Shown here in pieces: positions 24,583 to 43,881 of a DNA stretch of 64,000 nt; positions within the stretch are counted from its first letter, which is position 1, and each line of letters starts with the position of its first letter. The stretch lies in contig JBGARZ010000006.1 in NCBI GenBank assembly GCA_044229975.1, forward strand, positions 416,001-480,000, written 5' to 3'. A program made the position numbers and the translations under genes. Source of the stretch: Polyangiales bacterium. GTDB lineage: Bacteria; Myxococcota_A; Polyangia; Polyangiales; Ga0077539. The notes below the pieces were generated by a model that was not told where the DNA came from, ran no database searches, and saw only the letters and a list, made by a program, of their open reading frames with translations.

Positions 24583-25359
24583 CTACCCCCGCGCTGTCAG
24601 CCCGTTGCGCGCGAGGTACCGCTTCGCCGCGAACCACATGACCCACGCCACCACCGCCGCGCCCACCGTCGCGGGCGTCTGCCGCGTCACCGCGAAATAG
24701 AACGCCACCCAGAACACCGCCGCGAAGGCCAGCCCGGCCCCGAAGCGCCGCTTCTCTCCCGCCGACACCGCGGGCACTGGTGACGGTGCCACCTCCGTCT
24801 TCTTCGCCGTCTTGATCACGCCGTCGACCACCACGAGACGACCGTCGCGCAGCTTCGCGGCGAGCTCGTCGAAGTAGGTCGTGAGGTCGGGCGCGATGAC
24901 GGTGCGCTCCCAGTTCTTCGCCGACACGCGAATCACCTGACCGGCGGTTCCGCCATCGGGTGGGTCAAGGTCGAGGCAGTAGAAGTCACTCGCGCCACCG
25001 AGGAGGGCGAAGGGAATCCAGCGGCGGTTCCAGTACTGCGCGCGCACGTGGCCGACCGCGGGGGCGACGTTGCGCTCGCCCGAGTAGTGCGCGTCGAGCT
25101 GCGCGATCATCTCGTCGCGCTCCGACACGATGGCCGCGAGCGGCAGGTACTGAACCATCGGAAACAGGTACTCGCTCCCGCCGAACTCCTCGCCATCGTG
25201 TTCACGCCAGGTCGCACGAAACGCATCGGGTAACGCGACCCCGAGGCTCTCCTCGAAGCGTCGCAGCGCCTCCTCGTCGACGGGGACTCCGAGGCGTTCG
25301 AGCCCGCTGGGAAGGTGCTCGCGCATCCACGCTTCGATTGGTCGCCAGGACATCGCCAC
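24583..25359 (-). CDS. SMI1/KNR4 (SUKH) family protein with two C-terminal TM helices
   Basis: WRPIEAW...FEESLGVALPDAFRATWREHDGE...WNRRWIPFA...CLDLDPPDGGTAGQVI. Confidence 0.85.
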   Translation of the reverse strand: MAMSWRPIEAWMREHLPSGLERLGVPVDEEALRRFEESLGVALPDAFRATWREHDGEEFGGSEYLFPMVQYLPLAAIVSERDEMIAQLDAHYSGERNVAPAVGHVRAQYWNRRWIPFALLGGASDFYCLDLDPPDGGTAGQVIRVSAKNWERTVIAPDLTTYFDELAAKLRDGRLVVVDGVIKTAKKTEVAPSPVPAVSAGEKRRFGAGLAFAAVFWVAFYFAVTRQTPATVGAAVVAWVMWFAAKRYLARNGLTARG

Positions 25360-26927: not shown

Positions 26928-27061
26928 CGATGGGTTGGGACGACGTGAGCTGTTCCGCCGCCACTCCCGCCGCCACCCCCGCCGCCACCCCCGCCACCCC
27001 TGCAACGACGGCGTTTCTCGGTGAGTCTCGCTGGCACGCGCCGCGCTCTGGGAGTGCGGTG

Positions 27062-27979
27062 ATGGCGACGCCGTTCGACAGCCTGGCGAAGGAGATCCTC
27101 GACGTGCTGTTGCACGACCTCGGTCAACTGGAGACCGAAGTGGACGTGCCCGCGCTCGCGTCGCAACGCTCGGACGCATTCTTCGTCCCCGACCCGTTGC
27201 GGGACGACGAGCGTCGCGCGTTGGGGCTGCTCGGTCGCATCACGGCGGTGGCCGCGCTGCTGGAGCCCTTCCACGGAGCGCCGAGCCTGGACGACGTGTT
27301 CGCGTGCTTGCGCAAGATGCTCAACCACCGCCACGCGATGCTGTTGGCGAAGCGTCCCGTGGCAGAGCGCGCGTGGTTGTTCTGCGGCAGGCGCCCCGAC
27401 GCGGCTCTTCGCGCGCTGGGTGCCGTGCCCGCACCTGGGTGGCCTTCGGGCGTCTATCACTTGAGCGTGGGGATGCCGATGTCCTTCGTGGTGCTCTCGG
27501 AGCTGGAGCAGACCGACGACACGTTGCCGCTCCGACTCATGGGCTCCGGTGCGACGCTGACGTCAGCCCTGCGAACACTGCGCGAGCGCTACGGCGTGTT
27601 GCCGCGTGGGCGTGCGCTGTTCGCTGAGGTGGTACAAGTGTTCCTGGCGGCGCGGAAGCGCGGCGAGCGACTCACGGAGGAGTTCATGGTCGATCTCACC
27701 GAAGCCTACGAGTACATGGATCGCCAGCACGAAGAGGGCCTCCAGAAGGGCCTCCAAAGGGGCCTCCAGAAGGGCCGCGAGGAAGGCCGCGAGGAAGGTC
27801 ATGAGGAGGGAGCCCGCGCGGTGCTGGCCCGCCTCACAGAGCTGAAGCTGGCGCGCCCGCTGACCGACGCCGAGCGCGCCGTGATGCTCCGTCGGCTCGA
27901 CCTCGACGGCGTCGAGGCCGTAGGTGTGGCCCTGCTGTCTCTCGATCGCGACGCCCTCGCGAGCTGGCTCACCGGGTAA
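27062..27979 (+). CDS. Rpn/YhgA-like PD-(D/E)xK-fold protein with xxEG/xxKG tetrapeptide repeats
   Basis: FDSLAKEIL...ETEV...RSDAFF...LLEPF N-terminus; VVLSELEQTDDTLPLRLMGSG; HEEGLQKGLQRGLQKGREEGREEGHEEG. Confidence 0.75.
   Translation: MATPFDSLAKEILDVLLHDLGQLETEVDVPALASQRSDAFFVPDPLRDDERRALGLLGRITAVAALLEPFHGAPSLDDVFACLRKMLNHRHAMLLAKRPVAERAWLFCGRRPDAALRALGAVPAPGWPSGVYHLSVGMPMSFVVLSELEQTDDTLPLRLMGSGATLTSALRTLRERYGVLPRGRALFAEVVQVFLAARKRGERLTEEFMVDLTEAYEYMDRQHEEGLQKGLQRGLQKGREEGREEGHEEGARAVLARLTELKLARPLTDAERAVMLRRLDLDGVEAVGVALLSLDRDALASWLTG
27686..27979 (+). CDS. Putative in-frame nested small protein (RpnS-like, 97 aa)
   Basis: GGAGG at 27676-27680 followed 5 nt later by in-frame ATG (MVDLTEAYEYMDRQHEEG...). 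Confidence 0.5.
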   Translation: MVDLTEAYEYMDRQHEEGLQKGLQRGLQKGREEGREEGHEEGARAVLARLTELKLARPLTDAERAVMLRRLDLDGVEAVGVALLSLDRDALASWLTG

Positions 27980-28979: not shown

Positions 28980-29699
28980 ATGCCCTCTCGCGTCGTCCAC
29001 CAGACCGACGGCGTCGCCTGGATCGCCGCCAACCCGCTGCCGGCCGACCACGCCGTCGTCACGTCGCTGCCCGACCTCTCCGAAGTCCCATCGCTCGGCG
29101 CCGATGGGTGGCGCCGGTGGTTCGTCGACGCCGCCGCGCTCGCGTGTCGACAGGTCGCCGATGAGGGCGTGGTGGTGTTCTTCCAGACCGACGTGAAGCG
29201 CGAGGGCCGCTGGGTCGACAAGGGCTTCCTCGTGAGCCTCGGCGCCGAAGCCGCTGGATCACACCTGCTCTGGCACAAGGTCGTCTGCCGCGCTCCGCCC
29301 GCAACCGCCACCCCCGGGCGACCCGGATGGGCCCACCTGATGTGCTTCTCCCGCGCGCTCCGACTGGACACCGCCGGATCGACCGCCGACGTGCTCCCGC
29401 GCCTCGGCGAGATGACCTGGGCCCGCGCCATGGGCGTCGAGGCCTGCGAGGTGACGTGCCGCTTTCTGTTGGAACGCACGGTCGCCCGCACGGTGGTCGA
29501 CCCGTTCTGCGGCGTCGGGACGATGCTCGCCGTGGCCAACGCCTACGGGCTCGACGCGGTCGGGGTCGAGCTCTCCGCGAAGCGCGCCGAGCAGGCGCGG
29601 AGGCTCGTCGTCGATGTCACCGCGAAGGGCGATGGCCTCCCGACGGACAATGGCGATACGCTCCGCGACGATGACAGGGCGAACGTTCGCGATCGGTGA
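28980..29699 (+). CDS. SAM-dependent methyltransferase (N4/N6 DNA-methylase-like fold)
   Basis: VVTSLPD and VVDPFCGVGT motif I, GVELS. Confidence 0.75.
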   Translation: MPSRVVHQTDGVAWIAANPLPADHAVVTSLPDLSEVPSLGADGWRRWFVDAAALACRQVADEGVVVFFQTDVKREGRWVDKGFLVSLGAEAAGSHLLWHKVVCRAPPATATPGRPGWAHLMCFSRALRLDTAGSTADVLPRLGEMTWARAMGVEACEVTCRFLLERTVARTVVDPFCGVGTMLAVANAYGLDAVGVELSAKRAEQARRLVVDVTAKGDGLPTDNGDTLRDDDRANVRDR

Positions 29700-30414
29700 C
29701 ATCCACGGCGAGCTCGACGAGCTGCGCACGCTCTTCTCACGGATGCCCAACGTGGGGCGAGACGACACCGTGGTGTTCATGGGGGACTACGTCGACCGCG
29801 GGCTGAGCTCGCGGCAGGTGGTGGAGGTCGTGCGCGGCCTCGACCACGACCGCGGCTGCAAGGTCGTGTGCCTGCGTGGCAACCACGAAGACGCGTGGCT
29901 CAAGGTCATCGACGAGGGCTGGCCGGGCTTCGTGCTGCCGCCGAGCAACGGGTGCGTCGCGACCATGTGCTCGTACACGGGCGACGACCCGAGCGACCCG
30001 CAGACACCCGAGCGGGTGCGCGCGCTGCTGACGGGGTCGTTCTTCCCCGACGAGGTCATCGCGTGGTTTCGCGCGCTGCCCATCTGGTACGAAGACGAGC
30101 ACGCCATCTACGTGCACGCGGGCATCCACCCCGACGAGAGCGGGCAGTACCCGCACCCCCGCGACGCCGAAAACCCCTCGACGCTGCTGTGGACGCGCAC
30201 CGAGGCGTTCTTCCGCAACTACCGCGGCAAGCGCGTCATCGTCGGCCACACCCACACGATGGACCTCCCGCAAGAACTCTCCACGTACACCGTCGACGAC
30301 CCGACCGACCTCTGGGCAGGCCCCGCCGTCACGGCCATCGACACCGGCTGCGGCCGCGGCGGGTTTCTCACCGCGGTGGAGCTGCCCTCCATGACGGTCT
30401 ACGAGTCGCGCTGA
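29671..30414 (+). CDS. Metallophosphoesterase, PPP/ApaH-like Ser/Thr phosphatase
   Basis: GDIHG, GDYVDRG, LRGNHE, VHAG, GHT, IDTGCG. Confidence 0.92.
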   Translation: MTGRTFAIGDIHGELDELRTLFSRMPNVGRDDTVVFMGDYVDRGLSSRQVVEVVRGLDHDRGCKVVCLRGNHEDAWLKVIDEGWPGFVLPPSNGCVATMCSYTGDDPSDPQTPERVRALLTGSFFPDEVIAWFRALPIWYEDEHAIYVHAGIHPDESGQYPHPRDAENPSTLLWTRTEAFFRNYRGKRVIVGHTHTMDLPQELSTYTVDDPTDLWAGPAVTAIDTGCGRGGFLTAVELPSMTVYESR

Positions 30415-39719: not shown

Positions 39720-41066
39720 CTACCCCTGGCAGATGTCGAAGTTGCACTCGCCGTCGCAGCAGTCCGTCCGCGTCCGGCATGGCTGATAGCGCCGCTGGCA
39801 CGCGCGCTGTCGGCAGATGCCGGAGCCGCACTCGCCGCTGCAGCAGTCGGAGTCGGAGCCGCATCCTTCTCCGGGGTCGCCGCAGACGGTCTCGCAGCGA
39901 TTCGCGGTGCACCGCCCGTTGCAGCAGTCGCTGTTGTACACGCAGCGCTGATTGGGCGCGCGGCACACCACCTGGCAGACGCCGGTGTCGCTGCACTCGG
40001 TTCCCTCGCAGCACCAGTTGTCGCTGAAGCACCGCGACTGGCCGGGGCCGTAGCAGCCGTCGGACGCGCGGCACGTGCCCGCCGTGCAGTTGCCCGAGCA
40101 GCAGTTGGAGCGGGTGAGGCAGTCGCCGCCGTTGGCCACGCACGCGGCGGGCGTCCGGCAGGTGCCGCTGGTGCAGACGAGTCCGTCGCAGCAGCCCGAC
40201 CCGCACGGCGTCCCGACGGGCGAGCACGTCGGAGGCGCCTGGCAGGTGCCGCTGGTGCAGACGAGTCCATCGCAGCAACCCGTTCCGCAGGGCGAGCCGG
40301 CGGACGAGCAGGTGGTCGCGGCGCGACAGGTTCCTGCGACGCAGGTGGTGCCCGCGCAGCACTCGCCGCTGTACACGCATGCGCGACCCTCGGTGCGGCA
40401 GACGCAGACCCCGGACGAGCAGAGCATGTAGCCGCAGCAGTCGAGCGCGCCGGTGCATGCCTGGCCCCCCGCGCGGCAACAATGGAGCGTCGTGGGCGTC
40501 GTCTGGCACTCCGAGCCGGCGCAGCACTGGTCGGTGCTGGTGCAGCTCGCGCGCAGCGCAAGGCACACCGGGGTCACCGGCCTGTCCTCGGGCGCAGGAA
40601 CATCCGGCGCAGGGGCATCGGACACGAAGCCGCGATCCATCGCGACCGGGACATCCATCGTGACCGGGACGTCCATCGCGACGGGGACGTCCATCGCGAC
40701 GGGGACATCGACCACGGGGACATCGACCACGGCGGGTGTGTCGCGCGCGGCGACGACGTCCACCATGACGGAAACGTCGGGGGCCGCGGGCGCGTCGGTT
40801 GCGAGCATGACGTCGTTGATCGCGGGCCGATCGGGCGCGACGTCAGCGGAGGTGCCAGCGTCGACGGCGGGGGTGTCTCCAGTGGCGCCGGTGTCCGTGG
40901 GGGAGGCGTCCTGCGGCATCACGTCGGCGCTGACGATGCCTTCGCTGGGGGGCGCGCTGTCCGCGACGGTCGACCCATCGGACGGGAGGTAGAGGCCCGA
41001 CGCGGAGGGCGAGCAGGCGACGAGCAGGAGGGCGAGGCACAGCGGGCGCGAGTAGTTCCTCAACAT
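39720..41066 (-). CDS. Cys-rich repeat lipoprotein with DVP stalk
   Basis: Lipobox LVAC; (DVPVAM)n; multiple C-x6-C-x5-CC-x3-C modules. Confidence 0.8.
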   Translation of the reverse strand: MLRNYSRPLCLALLLVACSPSASGLYLPSDGSTVADSAPPSEGIVSADVMPQDASPTDTGATGDTPAVDAGTSADVAPDRPAINDVMLATDAPAAPDVSVMVDVVAARDTPAVVDVPVVDVPVAMDVPVAMDVPVTMDVPVAMDRGFVSDAPAPDVPAPEDRPVTPVCLALRASCTSTDQCCAGSECQTTPTTLHCCRAGGQACTGALDCCGYMLCSSGVCVCRTEGRACVYSGECCAGTTCVAGTCRAATTCSSAGSPCGTGCCDGLVCTSGTCQAPPTCSPVGTPCGSGCCDGLVCTSGTCRTPAACVANGGDCLTRSNCCSGNCTAGTCRASDGCYGPGQSRCFSDNWCCEGTECSDTGVCQVVCRAPNQRCVYNSDCCNGRCTANRCETVCGDPGEGCGSDSDCCSGECGSGICRQRACQRRYQPCRTRTDCCDGECNFDICQG

Positions 41067-41307
41067 GGGACGGCGGGTATCACGCGGGGTGGGACGGTCC
41101 AACGAGCTGCCGACGCCGGGGGGCGGGCGAAGACCGCAGAAACGACGGGAAATCAACGGGTCGATGACGCACCTGTGCGAACAGCGTTCGCAGGGTTGCA
41201 ACGTCAGGCGGGGTGTTGCGCCGTCGGGCATCCCACGCGCCGACGCGAACGCGATGAGGGCGCCGCCCGAGCCGTGGGAGACTGCGTCGCCTCCAACGCT
41301 CACCGTC

Positions 41308-43590
41308 ATGACGCCGACGATCATCAACGCCCTGCTCGGGCCGACCAACACCGGCAAGACCCACCGGGCCGTCGAGCGCATGCTCGAACACCCCACCGGC
41401 ATGATCGGCCTCCCGCTGCGCCTCCTGGCGCGCGAGGTCTACGACCGCGTCAGCACCCGCGTGGGCGAAGCGCGCGTCGCGCTGATGACCGGCGAGGAGA
41501 AGCGCGTCCCGGCGCGGCCCGATTACTGGGTGTGCACCGTCGAGGCGATGCCGCTCGACCGGCCGGTGGACTTCCTCGCGGTCGACGAGATACAGCTCGC
41601 GGCGCATCAGCAGCGCGGGCATGTGTTTACCGATCGACTGCTCAACGCGCGGGGTGAGCGGGAGACGTGGTTCATGGGGTCGGACACCGCGGTCGGCGTG
41701 GTGGGCGAGCTCGTGCCGACGGCGAAGGTGTCGAGCGCGCCGCGGTTCTCGAAGCTGAGCGCGGCGGAGACGGTGCCGCTGGCGAGGGTTCCGCGGAGGA
41801 GCGCGGTGGTGGCCTTCTCGATGGAGCAGGTCTACGAGCTCGCCGAGAAGCTGCGTGCGATGAAGGGCGGGACGGCCGTGGTGCTGGGCGCGCTGTCACC
41901 GCGGGCGCGCAACGCGCAGGTGGCGATGTTCCAGTCGGGCGAGGTCGACTACCTCGTGGCGACGGACGCCATCGGCATGGGGCTCAACCTCGACGTGAAG
42001 CACGTGGCCTTCGCGTCGCTGCGGAAGTTCGACGGGCGCGTGGCGCGCGAGCTCGACCCCGCGGAGCTCGGTCAGATCGCCGGTCGCGCGGGCCGCCACC
42101 TGCAAGACGGAACCTTCAGCGCCCTCGCCCCGCACGTCATCCCCGCGGACGTGAGAGCGCAGATCGAGAGCCAGCGGTTTGCGCCGCTGCGCAAGGTGGT
42201 GTGGCGTTCGAGCGCGCTGGATTTCAGCTCGGTGGCGGCGCTCACGGCGGCGCTGAAGGTTCCGGCGCCGAGGCGCATCCTCACGCGGGTGCAGCAGGCG
42301 GAGGACGAGGCCGCGCTGGCGGCGCTGCTGGTGCGCACCGACGTGCGCGAGCGAGCGACGGGGGCGAAGCGGGTCGAGGCGCTGTGGGAGGTGAGCACGG
42401 TGCCCGACTTCCGTCGGCTGCTCTTCGAGGACCACGTCGGTCAGCTCGCGTCGGTCTACGTCGAGCTCTGCGACCACGGTCGGCTGCGGGACGACTTCAT
42501 CCGCGCGGGGGTTGTTCCGCTCGAAGACCTGACGGGTGACGTCGACACCCTGGTGGCGCGCCTCGCGACGGTGCGAACGTGGTCGTACCTGGTCAACCGC
42601 GGATCCTGGATCGACGACGCCGCGCACTGGCAGGAGCGCACGCGCGCCCTCGAAGACCAGTTGAGCGACGCGCTGCACGCGCGGCTGGTGCAGCGCTTCG
42701 TGGACGAGCCCGCGCCCGCGAAGCAGGCATCACCGCGACCGCGTCGGATGATGACCGAGGCGGAGACGAAGCCGGTCGACCCGCGGCATCCCTTCGCGGC
42801 GCTGAAGGGGATGCGGGCGGCGCTCGGTCCGAAGGTGGCGGCGACGACGGCCTCACCGACGGCGTGGATGGAGGAGCTCATCGACGCACCGCACGCGCGG
42901 TTTACGCTCAACGGTAAAGGACAGGTGCTGCTGGTGCCTGAAGGCGAGGTGCTGGCGGTGTTGGTGGCGGGCGCGTCGGTGACGCTGCCGGATGTGCAGT
43001 TGGAGACGTCGCGCGCGCTGGCTGCGCTGGGTGGTGGGGCGCGCACGCGGCTGTTGCGTCGGCTGGTGGCGTGGTCGCGCGACGAGGTTCACGCGCTGCT
43101 GGCGCCGGTGGAGCAGGCGGCGGGCGAGGCGGTGGACGCGGCGTGGTGGCGGGGATTGCACCACCAGCTGGCGCAAGGGTTGGGCTGCGCGATGACGTCG
43201 GAGGTGGCGGGCGTGCTGGCGGACGTCGACCGCGACGCGCTGGCGGCGAGGGGGTTGGTGCTGGGAGCGCGGGTGGTGTTCGCGCGGGCGCTGCTGACGG
43301 CGGAGGCGGTGGCGCGGCGGGTGGTGCTGGTGCGGGCGCGCTACGGGAAGGGCGTGCGGGCGCCGGCCGAGGGCGCGGCGTCGATGGCGGTGGAGACGGG
43401 TGTGTCGCCGCGGGCGTACCTGGCGATGGGGTATCCCGTGATGGGCGGCAGAGGCGTGCGCGCGGACGTGGTGGAGCGCATCGCGGCGGCGTGCGCGACG
43501 GAGGACGGGCGGCGGTCGCCGTTTGCGCAGTGGCTGGGATGCGGCGCGCGCGAGGCCGAGCGGGTGGTGGAGGCGATCGCGCCGGGGTAG
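41308..43590 (+). CDS. SUV3-like (MgpS-like) superfamily 2 RNA helicase
   Basis: LGPTNTGKT, PLRLLARE, CTVEAMP, DEIQL, RGHVFT, ATDAIGMGLNL, QIAGRAGR. Confidence 0.92.
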   Translation: MTPTIINALLGPTNTGKTHRAVERMLEHPTGMIGLPLRLLAREVYDRVSTRVGEARVALMTGEEKRVPARPDYWVCTVEAMPLDRPVDFLAVDEIQLAAHQQRGHVFTDRLLNARGERETWFMGSDTAVGVVGELVPTAKVSSAPRFSKLSAAETVPLARVPRRSAVVAFSMEQVYELAEKLRAMKGGTAVVLGALSPRARNAQVAMFQSGEVDYLVATDAIGMGLNLDVKHVAFASLRKFDGRVARELDPAELGQIAGRAGRHLQDGTFSALAPHVIPADVRAQIESQRFAPLRKVVWRSSALDFSSVAALTAALKVPAPRRILTRVQQAEDEAALAALLVRTDVRERATGAKRVEALWEVSTVPDFRRLLFEDHVGQLASVYVELCDHGRLRDDFIRAGVVPLEDLTGDVDTLVARLATVRTWSYLVNRGSWIDDAAHWQERTRALEDQLSDALHARLVQRFVDEPAPAKQASPRPRRMMTEAETKPVDPRHPFAALKGMRAALGPKVAATTASPTAWMEELIDAPHARFTLNGKGQVLLVPEGEVLAVLVAGASVTLPDVQLETSRALAALGGGARTRLLRRLVAWSRDEVHALLAPVEQAAGEAVDAAWWRGLHHQLAQGLGCAMTSEVAGVLADVDRDALAARGLVLGARVVFARALLTAEAVARRVVLVRARYGKGVRAPAEGAASMAVETGVSPRAYLAMGYPVMGGRGVRADVVERIAAACATEDGRRSPFAQWLGCGAREAERVVEAIAPG

Positions 43591-43638
43591 GTGTTCCTGG
43601 CGGCGCGGAAGCGCGGCGAGCGTCTCACGGAGGAGTTC

Positions 43639-43881
43639 ATGGTCGATCTCACCGAAGCCTACGAGTACATGGATCGTCAGCACGAGGAGGGGCGCGCGGA
43701 GGGAGCCCGCTCGATGCTGGTGCGCCTCACCGAGCTGAAGCTCGCGCGACCGCTGACAGACGCCGAGCGCGCCGCCATGCTCGGTCGCCTCGACCTTGAT
43801 GGCGTCGAGTCCGTCGGCGGAGCATTGGTGTCTCTCGACCGCGACGCCCTCGCGCTCTGGCTCGCCGCCACCCGCGGCTGA
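43639..43881 (+). CDS. Stand-alone Rpn C-terminal (RpnS-like) small protein, 80 aa, or a 5'-deleted paralog
   Basis: 43591-43881 homologous to 27638-27979; GGAGG at 43629-43633 then ATG 43639; ORF intact. Confidence 0.6.
   Translation: MVDLTEAYEYMDRQHEEGRAEGARSMLVRLTELKLARPLTDAERAAMLGRLDLDGVESVGGALVSLDRDALALWLAATRG

What the first reader, a model, noticed from the sequence alone, without database searches (positions are those of the whole stretch)
27062..27979. Rpn-like gene with a built-in internal RBS+ATG: candidate gene-within-gene toxin-antitoxin
Seen: inside the ORF, CACGGAGGAGTTC-ATG gives GGAGG (27676-27680) 5 nt before an in-frame ATG (27686). This defines a 97-aa C-terminal protein containing seven xxEG/xxKG-type tetrapeptides and a helical tail. 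Established: E. coli Rpn/YhgA proteins are toxic PD-(D/E)xK nucleases neutralised by small in-frame C-terminal proteins (RpnS) and can act against phage. Inference: this divergent myxobacterial family uses the same architecture.
Basis: partly seen in the sequence, partly recalled or inferred. Interest (0 to 1): 0.7.

Follow-up and report, generated by a model that had tools for sequence, protein, structure and literature searches.

The report
Nested-antidote nuclease under DNA-uptake promoter
This gene likely makes a DNA-cutting protein and, from a second start site conserved inside it, a smaller protein that would act as its antidote (as in E. coli Rpn genes), and it carries the same upstream sequence motif as this bacterium's DNA-uptake genes, so it is predicted to be switched on with them.

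Summary
In detail: GGAGG at 27676-80, an in-frame ATG at 27686, a 97-aa C-terminal product and seven tetrapeptides. The internal start is conserved. Of 91 homologous genes, 88 have a start codon there, and 85 of those 88 have a Shine-Dalgarno core, against 69 of 403 other ATGs in the same genes. The N-domain models as a PD-(D/E)xK nuclease. It is not a PF04754 Rpn (0 of 140 members match) and has E-P-F where RpnA has E-H-Q. It is therefore an unannotated Rpn-like family (at least 716 clusters) with the same architecture. A tail-only copy lies at 43639-43881. Toxicity, neutralisation and phage defence are untested.

New here: the gene's leader consists of CCGCCGCCA repeats and a sigma54-type box. 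The same leader precedes comEA, comEC, comM, radC and the second recA in this genome. It also precedes 18 of 22 comM genes in the family and 34 of 88 homologues, against 29 of 6272 background ORFs. It is absent before dprA and comF. Best reading: a nested toxin-antitoxin nuclease, likely co-induced with DNA-uptake and recombination genes.

The parts
26955..26996 (+). Upstream repeat array: three CCGCCGCCA half-sites at 12-nt spacing plus a partial fourth. Predicted activator-binding site, shared with comEA, comEC, comM, radC and the second recA.
27032..27046 (+). sigma54-type -24/-12 box (GG at 27033-34, GC at 27045-46; consensus recalled). It predicts a transcript start near 27058, i.e. an almost leaderless mRNA for the long protein.
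27062..27979 (+). Long ORF, 305 aa: PD-(D/E)xK-fold N-domain (about residues 1-180), a helical linker, then the repeat helix and helical tail.
27062..27601 (+). Predicted nuclease domain with conserved D6, K10, E28, D38, E68 and K85; F/Y at position 70.
27626..27640 (+). Possible second internal start (GAGGTG, then GTG 27638 = V193). Present here and as ATG in one paralogue; not conserved across the family.
27676..27680 (+). Internal Shine-Dalgarno GGAGG
27686..27979 (+). Nested in-frame ORF, 97 aa: candidate small antitoxin (RpnS-like); one long helix plus three short helices.
27728..27811 (+). Seven tetrapeptide repeats (3 in the closest paralogue, 2 in the stand-alone copy).
43591..43881 (+). 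Stand-alone copy of the 3' end of the gene directly after a helicase stop codon. Same SD (43629-33), ATG 43639, 80 aa, 2 repeats. Either an orphan antitoxin or a recent truncation.

Best explanation
The gene is likely a gene-within-a-gene toxin-antitoxin pair of an unannotated Rpn-like family: the 305-aa product is a predicted PD-(D/E)xK DNA nuclease, and a 97-aa protein, likely translated from the conserved internal SD+ATG, would bind and inhibit it through the shared repeat helix. Transcription likely comes from a sigma54-type promoter whose upstream repeats are shared with comEA, comEC, comM, radC and the second recA, so the nuclease would be induced with the DNA-uptake and recombination genes. 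The long form is predicted to be translated from an almost leaderless mRNA and the small form from a strong SD, which would keep the antidote in excess. Shown: the sequence features, their conservation and the shared leader. Modelled: the fold. Inferred by analogy with E. coli Rpn: two products, DNase activity, toxicity, neutralisation. Inferred from motif sharing: sigma54 use and co-induction.
For: Internal start: 88 of 91 full-length homologous genes have ATG (75), GTG (12) or TTG (1) within 3 codons of M209. An SD 4-mer is present in 85 of those 88, against 69 of 403 other in-frame ATGs in the same genes; median pairing energy is -9.4 vs -3.2 kcal/mol. After thinning to <50% identity, 34 of 36 keep a start and 32 of 34 an SD. 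Synonymous recoding reaches the observed mean energy in 0, 6 and 2 of 1000 runs at the three thinning levels. Met lies within 3 residues of 209 in 117 of 137 representatives, the highest of any position (median 9), just after the least conserved linker. Fold: model pLDDT 84; top structural matches NucS (Z 9.8, rmsd 3.1, 104 residues) and AF1548 (Z 9.7), followed mostly by restriction-type nucleases. D6/D38/E68/K85 are 97-99% conserved and fall in the order of RpnA D11/D63/E82/R94. Repeat number runs from 1 to 11 across 88 genes by a loose count. DUF4351 occurs in 24 of 140 members, and Zhong et al. name DUF4351 as the annotation of some separate RpnS genes. A tail-only copy lies at 43639. Leader: 34 of 88 homologues, 18 of 22 family comM, 8 of 18 comEC and 8 of 8 second recA genes in the genus, against 29 of 6272 ORFs in this genome. 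In 30 of the 34 the box lies 27-33 nt before the start codon. The genome has rpoN and 60 sigma54-activator matches.
Against: No expression, toxicity or binding data. Most of the SD is explained by Glu-rich codons: recoded mean -8.3 vs observed -9.1, and at <50% identity 38 of 1000 recodings reach the 5-mer count. Val at the start column is GTG in 9 of 12 cases against 58% background, which is not a clear excess. Position 70 is F/Y in 93%, where RpnA has Q; Foldseek gave no hit at E<=0.001; active-site geometry was not inspected. No PF04754, PF12784 or PF11103 match among 140 members; the profile comparison with RpnA relatives gives 38% probability over one helix. The stand-alone copy also keeps 16 upstream codons unchanged in protein, so it may be a recent truncation. 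The leader is absent from 54 of 88 homologues, from 16 of 16 dprA, from this genome's comF-like gene, from 10 of 18 comEC and from 5 of 6 second-type recA outside the genus. The motif was defined on this genome's own sites. No activator was identified.
Confidence: 0.6

Rival explanations
1. It is an Rpn-type nested toxin-antitoxin used for phage defence. The shared leader is inherited or incidental, or marks a general foreign-DNA or DNA-damage response rather than competence.
For: RpnP2 protects E. coli against T-even phages (10.1101/2023.05.02.539157). Gene copy number is high and patchy, and the gene is absent behind the neighbouring PHP gene in 3 of 3 relatives checked. recA and radC also fit DNA repair, dprA and comF lack the leader, and 54 of 88 homologues lack it.
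Against: The leader precedes comEA, comEC and comM, which are uptake and recombination genes. It sits before several unrelated nuclease families and needs at least 6-10 gains or losses on the family tree. No close neighbour is a convincing defence gene: PADLOC gave weak methyltransferase and helicase hits, and one strong hit to a candidate system for the SUKH gene 1.7 kb away.
Confidence: 0.22
2. Two products are made, but the long one is not an active toxic nuclease. It is a DNA-binding or DNA-processing accessory of recombination, and the small one tunes its oligomer.
For: E-P-F replaces E-x-K/Q. The leader is shared with recA, radC and comM. RpnA promotes RecA-independent recombination, which is separable from its toxicity (PMC5350276 passages).
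Against: Four acidic or basic residues are 96-99% conserved across proteins under 50% identical. RpnA-Q84A stays toxic, so that position is not required for toxicity. Frequent broken copies are what a costly gene would leave.
Confidence: 0.11
3. There is a single protein. The internal SD+ATG is a by-product of a conserved Glu-Glu-x-Met helix cap in a GC-rich genome.
For: Glu is GAG in 87% of codons, and recoded controls recover most of the pairing energy.
Against: The SD is also spelled by other residues (for example K-E, G-E, P-R-S, W-S and E-G codons) and the start is kept as GTG or TTG when Met is lost. The flanking linker is poorly conserved. Unrelated Rpn-like families in this genome show an SD+ATG at the same distance from the C-terminus.
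Confidence: 0.07

Closest known systems
E. coli RpnA-E / RpnP2 long-small pairs (Zhong et al. 2023; bioRxiv 10.1101/2023.05.02.539157 parts 1-3 of 4 read, PMC10400941 passages read)
   Same: About 300 aa; PD-(D/E)xK-fold N-domain; internal SD+ATG after Lys/Glu codons; tetrapeptide repeats of variable number starting 8-20 residues after the internal Met (15 here); long first helix; separate tail-only copies; patchy, multi-copy distribution.
   Different: No PF04754 match; E-P-F instead of E-H-Q; small protein of 97 aa (family median 93) vs about 49 aa for RpnA-S; the tail has no fold match to any PDB entry at E<=0.001; sigma54-type leader shared with com genes; no internal promoter found; nothing tested experimentally.
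DUF4351 (PF14261)-tailed proteins and other Rpn-like families (PF12784, PF11103)
   Same: 24 of 140 family members carry DUF4351. A PF12784 protein in this genome has a similar repeat-plus-tail. An Atlas look-alike cluster is 30% DUF4351, mostly cyanobacterial.
   Different: The window's own tail does not hit DUF4351, and the N-domain matches none of these models.
Competence-regulated toxin-antitoxin operons: H. influenzae toxTA and E. coli hicAB (PMC6957337, passages read)
   Same: A toxin-antitoxin unit under the promoter type of the competence genes, with a route that favours the antitoxin.
   Different: Those are two-gene RelE/ParE- or HicA-type systems under CRP-S/Sxy, shown by experiment. 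Here it is a nested nuclease pair under a predicted sigma54 promoter, inferred from motifs only.
NucS/EndoMS and AF1548 PD-(D/E)xK domains
   Same: Best structural matches of the N-domain (Z 9.8 and 9.7).
   Different: 12-13% identity, fold only; no shared domain architecture or implied function.

Membership tests
Rpn (PF04754 / TIGR01784 / PF12784 / PF11103) | N-domain matches an Rpn profile above its cut-off | tested here: not met
   0 of 140 members hit PF04754, PF12784 or PF11103 at E<=0.05. TIGR01784 gives 15.6 bits vs cut-off 52.1, on the repeats only; 12 of 140 members hit it at E<=0.05. hhalign gives 38% probability over 16 columns (the RpnA profile was shallow).
Rpn | D-D-E-x-Q-R catalytic set (RpnA D11, D63, E82, Q84, R94) | tested here: not met
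   D6, D38, E68 and K85 are conserved in the same order (matched by eye), but position 70 is F/Y in 93%.
PD-(D/E)xK superfamily | alpha-beta-beta-beta-alpha-beta core with acidic residues on strands 2 and 3 | tested here: met
   Secondary structure and structural matches with Z 9.8/9.7. Model-based; Foldseek had no hit at E<=0.001.
Rpn-type nested toxin-antitoxin (works like) | Conserved internal SD + in-frame start before the repeats | tested here: met
   88 of 91 and 85 of 88 genes; 117 of 137 proteins.
Rpn-type nested toxin-antitoxin (works like) | Tetrapeptide repeats of variable number, 8-20 residues after the internal Met, in the first helix | tested here: met
   Residue 15 here; 7, 3 and 2 repeats in the three close copies; long helix in the model.
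Rpn-type nested toxin-antitoxin (works like) | Separate tail-only gene copies | tested here: inconclusive
   The copy at 43639-43881 and several in relatives keep SD+ATG, but head-only fragments also exist and recent truncation is not excluded.
Rpn-type nested toxin-antitoxin (works like) | Internal promoter for the short transcript | tested here: inconclusive
   No sigma70-like site and no distinctive 6-mer before the internal start. The scan is insensitive at 71% GC.
Rpn-type nested toxin-antitoxin (works like) | Small protein made; long form toxic DNase; neutralised by the small form; anti-phage | not testable with these tools
   Needs bench work.
sigma54 promoter | GG-N10-GC box at a fixed distance from the gene, upstream repeats, rpoN and activators in the genome | tested here: met
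   The consensus is recalled, and use of the box as a promoter is not shown.
Competence regulon | Same element before the core uptake and processing genes | tested here: inconclusive
   Present before comEA, comEC, comM, radC and the second recA; absent before dprA (0 of 16) and the comF-like gene.

The most novel reading that the evidence does not exclude
This family of myxobacteria-like genomes has an undescribed sigma54-dependent DNA-uptake regulon, marked by CGCCA repeat arrays before comEA, comEC, comM, radC and a dedicated second recA. Nested nuclease-antidote genes of several unrelated Rpn-like families have repeatedly been wired into it, so that self-neutralised DNases are produced exactly when foreign DNA enters, to cut, screen or recombine it. 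That would tie Rpn-type proteins to natural transformation rather than only to phage defence, and give a sequence handle on competence control in this group.
Probability: 0.4. Interest if true: 0.8.

Novelty: new variant of a known kind. Interest (0 to 1): 0.6.

Why it matters
It extends the nested toxin-antitoxin design to a large family that Pfam and NCBIfam do not name (716 clusters at 50% identity with E<=1e-30) and whose catalytic motif differs from that of Rpn. More importantly, the shared leader makes two open questions directly testable: when Rpn-type nucleases are induced, and how DNA-uptake genes are controlled in myxobacteria-like organisms. The repeat array can serve as bait to find the activator. 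I found no paper describing this family, this motif or a sigma54 competence regulon (searches: open-access full text only; listings seen; supplements such as Dataset S1 of Zhong et al. not read and may include family members).

Tried and rejected
Complex prediction of the long and small proteins was not available, so binding is unmodelled. No RNA holder was listed for the stretch; there were 17 DNA runs, all with small shares, none laid. Fold search with the small-protein model gave no hit at E<=0.001, and a sequence search of the PDB with the family profile gave nothing meaningful. FliH and Yae1_N hits come from the repeats only and were rejected. A longer N-terminus from GTG 26855 or ATG 26931 was rejected: the leader is shared with paralogues in different frames and homologues start at M1. 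Test of whether each gene's repeat array best resembles its own genus's comM array: only 14 of 34 among 8 genera, so genome-specific matching is not established; all 34 matched the broad type (direct-repeat vs palindromic), but that grouping was made afterwards. No sigma54 activator lies next to the com genes (nearest 22 kb or more), so the regulator is unidentified. My recollection that E. coli rpn genes belong to the Sxy/CRP-S regulon could not be checked: the paper was not held, searches did not find it, and PMC5350276 has no 'Sxy', 'CRP' or 'competence'; it is not used as evidence. The DdiA paper has no mention of comEC, radC, Rpn or sigma54 (passages). An even phylum-wide sample matched the family in 3 of 151 genomes. 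The 16S 3' end was not found in the assembly, so a standard anti-SD (recalled) was used. Earlier findings: nothing by sequence, place or the regulon words.

Full report
Observation. The ORF at 27062-27979 encodes 305 aa. GGAGG lies at 27676-80, five bases before an in-frame ATG at 27686, giving 97 aa. There are seven tetrapeptides at aa 223-250, beginning at residue 15 of the small product. One such site alone is weak evidence: 2.9% of 6000 sampled internal ATGs in this 71%-GC genome have a 5-nt SD core.

Is the internal start selected? I fetched the best-scoring part of the matches from 41 related genomes (one search listed 150 rows and left 102 unlisted). From these and the own genome I kept 91 distinct full-length genes; 27 partial hits were set aside. 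In 88 of 91 a start codon lies within three codons of M209 (75 ATG, 12 GTG, 1 TTG). An SD 4-mer precedes 85 of the 88 and a 5-mer 63, against 69 and 11 of 403 other in-frame ATGs in the same genes; median pairing with a standard anti-SD (recalled) is -9.4 vs -3.2 kcal/mol. Thinned to under 50% identity, 34 of 36 keep a start and 32 of 34 a 4-mer. Much of this follows from Glu codons: synonymous recoding gives a mean of -8.3 vs the observed -9.1. The observed value is still reached in only 0, 6 and 2 of 1000 runs at the three thinning levels (5-mer count: 0, 2 and 38). The SD is also spelled by other residues. Val at the column is GTG in 9 of 12 cases, not clearly above the 58% background. Among 137 proteins representing clusters at 50% identity, 117 have Met within three residues of 209, the top position (median 9), next to the least conserved part of the protein. 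The genes are kin, so these counts are not independent, but the signal survives thinning.

What is the long protein? The AlphaFold model (pLDDT 84) has an alpha/beta N-domain whose best matches are NucS (Z 9.8, rmsd 3.1, 104 residues) and AF1548 (Z 9.7), then mostly restriction-type nucleases. Foldseek agreed only weakly (best E 0.09). D6, K10, D38, E68 and K85 are 96-99% conserved and E28 85%, in the order of RpnA D11, D63, E82 and R94 (PMC5350276 section 15; sequence). The residue after E-x is F/Y in 93%, so a lysine would have to come from helix 1 or 2 (inference); RpnA-Q84A remains toxic. It is not a sequence-defined Rpn: none of 140 members hits PF04754, PF12784 or PF11103, while 24 hit DUF4351. 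TIGR01784 matches this protein only on the repeats, and a profile comparison with RpnA relatives aligns only the first helix. The family is large (716 clusters at E<=1e-30). Atlas look-alikes are mostly Myxococcota, with a cyanobacterial DUF4351 cluster. This genome has six full-length copies.

The small protein models as one long helix that contains the repeats, plus three short helices (pLDDT 88). This resembles the description of RpnA-S (10.1101/2023.05.02.539157, parts 1-3 of 4 read), but there was no fold hit. Repeat number is 7 here, 3 in the closest paralogue and 1-11 across 88 genes by a loose count. In RpnC, repeat number sets antitoxin specificity. A copy of only the 3' end sits at 43591-43881, starting right after a helicase stop codon, with the same SD, ATG 43639 and 2 repeats. 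Helicase orthologues in 7 of 7 relatives examined lack it. It resembles ypaA-type orphans, but its 16 upstream codons are also unchanged in protein and head-only fragments exist in relatives, so recent truncation is equally possible. The main gene is absent behind the neighbouring PHP gene in 3 of 3 relatives.

The leader. The 110 bases before the gene hold three CCGCCGCCA half-sites (26955, 26967, 26979), an AT-richer spacer and a GG-N10-GC box at 27032-46 that fits the sigma54 consensus (recalled). The genome has 25 clusters of two or more exact half-sites. Clusters followed by a box precede comEA, comEC, comM, radC and one of two recA genes (identified; for comM). They also precede two paralogues, Rpn-like genes of other families, an IS91-type transposase, a Uma2 nuclease and a PDDEXK_3 nuclease. 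With a looser rule (box plus three or more CGCCA), 29 of 6272 ORFs in the genome score, about half of them these genes. The rule was drawn from this genome, so the relatives are the fairer test: comM 18 of 22 in the family and 0 of 5 outside it (two loci too short, one at a contig start left out); comEC 8 of 18; second recA 8 of 8 in the genus but 1 of 6 in other genera; first recA 0 of 14; dprA 0 of 16 (recA copies assigned by score; the family and genus counts include this genome). This genome's comF-like gene lacks it. Among homologues of the finding, 34 of 88 in 12 of 22 genomes carry it (three of the 91 had too little flank). On a quick tree of the N-domains the label needs 10 changes, 6 of them forced by well-supported branches, so it was gained or lost repeatedly. 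Matching to the own genus's comM array was only 14 of 34. In 30 of the 34 the box starts 27-33 nt before the start codon, which puts the predicted transcript start within about eight bases of it (27058 vs 27062 here). [quoted passage not shown] H. influenzae toxTA and E. coli hicAB are precedents for toxin-antitoxin units under competence promoters (PMC6957337 passages).

Mechanism and verdict. Most likely (0.6) this is a nested nuclease-antidote pair that works like Rpn and is induced with DNA-uptake and recombination genes. The nested architecture alone I put near 0.9, and the toxin-antitoxin function near 0.8. Rivals: ordinary phage defence with an incidental or stress-type leader (0.22), a non-toxic recombination accessory (0.11), and a single protein (0.07). 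Nothing about expression, activity or binding was shown. It is a new variant of a known kind; the promoter link is the part a specialist would not expect. Absence from print rests only, and unread supplements of Zhong et al. may list members of this family.

Noticed in passing
G000 C13:1-80 (L178), C38:981093 (L177), C34:45640 (L165), C25:22532 (L173), C36:66198 (L169): The same repeat array plus sigma54-type box lies before comEA, comEC, comM, radC and the second recA: a candidate DNA-uptake regulon. The boxes of comEA, comEC, comM and radC end in TGG rather than TGC. In several more distant relatives the second recA lies directly beside comM.
   Followed up: yes
G000 C19:158334-159251, C36:126464-127369, C36:392519-393409, C19:36842-37741, C11:659781-660665, C39:39544-40539: Rpn-like genes with other, Pfam-less N-domains carry the same leader and also have an SD+ATG about 88-110 codons from their end. 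The C19:36842 and C11 proteins have a different repeated unit in the tail.
   Followed up: partly
G000 C14:204879 (L171), C15:183064 (L174), C2:61708 (L172), C24:174798-175481 (L179), C2:230681 (L180), C14:35866 (L184): The leader also precedes an IS91-type transposase, a Uma2 nuclease, a PDDEXK_3 nuclease and an unknown exported protein. Two strong arrays have no assigned target gene.
   Followed up: partly
L004 (G000 C39:125433-125930, minus) and L107 (G001): Paralogues whose 5' half is deleted, with the repeat array joined directly to about codon 150-170 and the internal SD+ATG kept. Contigs C6, C13 and C24 of the assembly also begin or end in this array.
   Followed up: partly
loci L060-L098, e.g. 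L061, L063, L066, L072-L074, L080, L082, L085, L088, L098: Many homologues that lack the sigma54 leader instead share a GCAACC-like motif about 30-40 nt before the start, often followed by a TCGAT/TCGAG-like motif: possibly a second promoter class.
   Followed up: no
window 41065-43590 (+): Suv3-type DEXQ helicase. In most relatives it is followed by a small conserved gene that is not next to it here; the tail-only copy takes that place.
   Followed up: partly
window 24583-25359 (-), 28980-29699 (+), 29614-30414 (+): A SMI1/KNR4 (SUKH) protein with a strong hit to PADLOC candidate PDC-M40A, a methyltransferase-like ORF and a metallophosphoesterase lie near the gene.
   Followed up: no
L012/L038/L111 (G002 C157): A tandem array of at least three copies of the family gene, one of them frameshifted near the internal start.
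   Followed up: no
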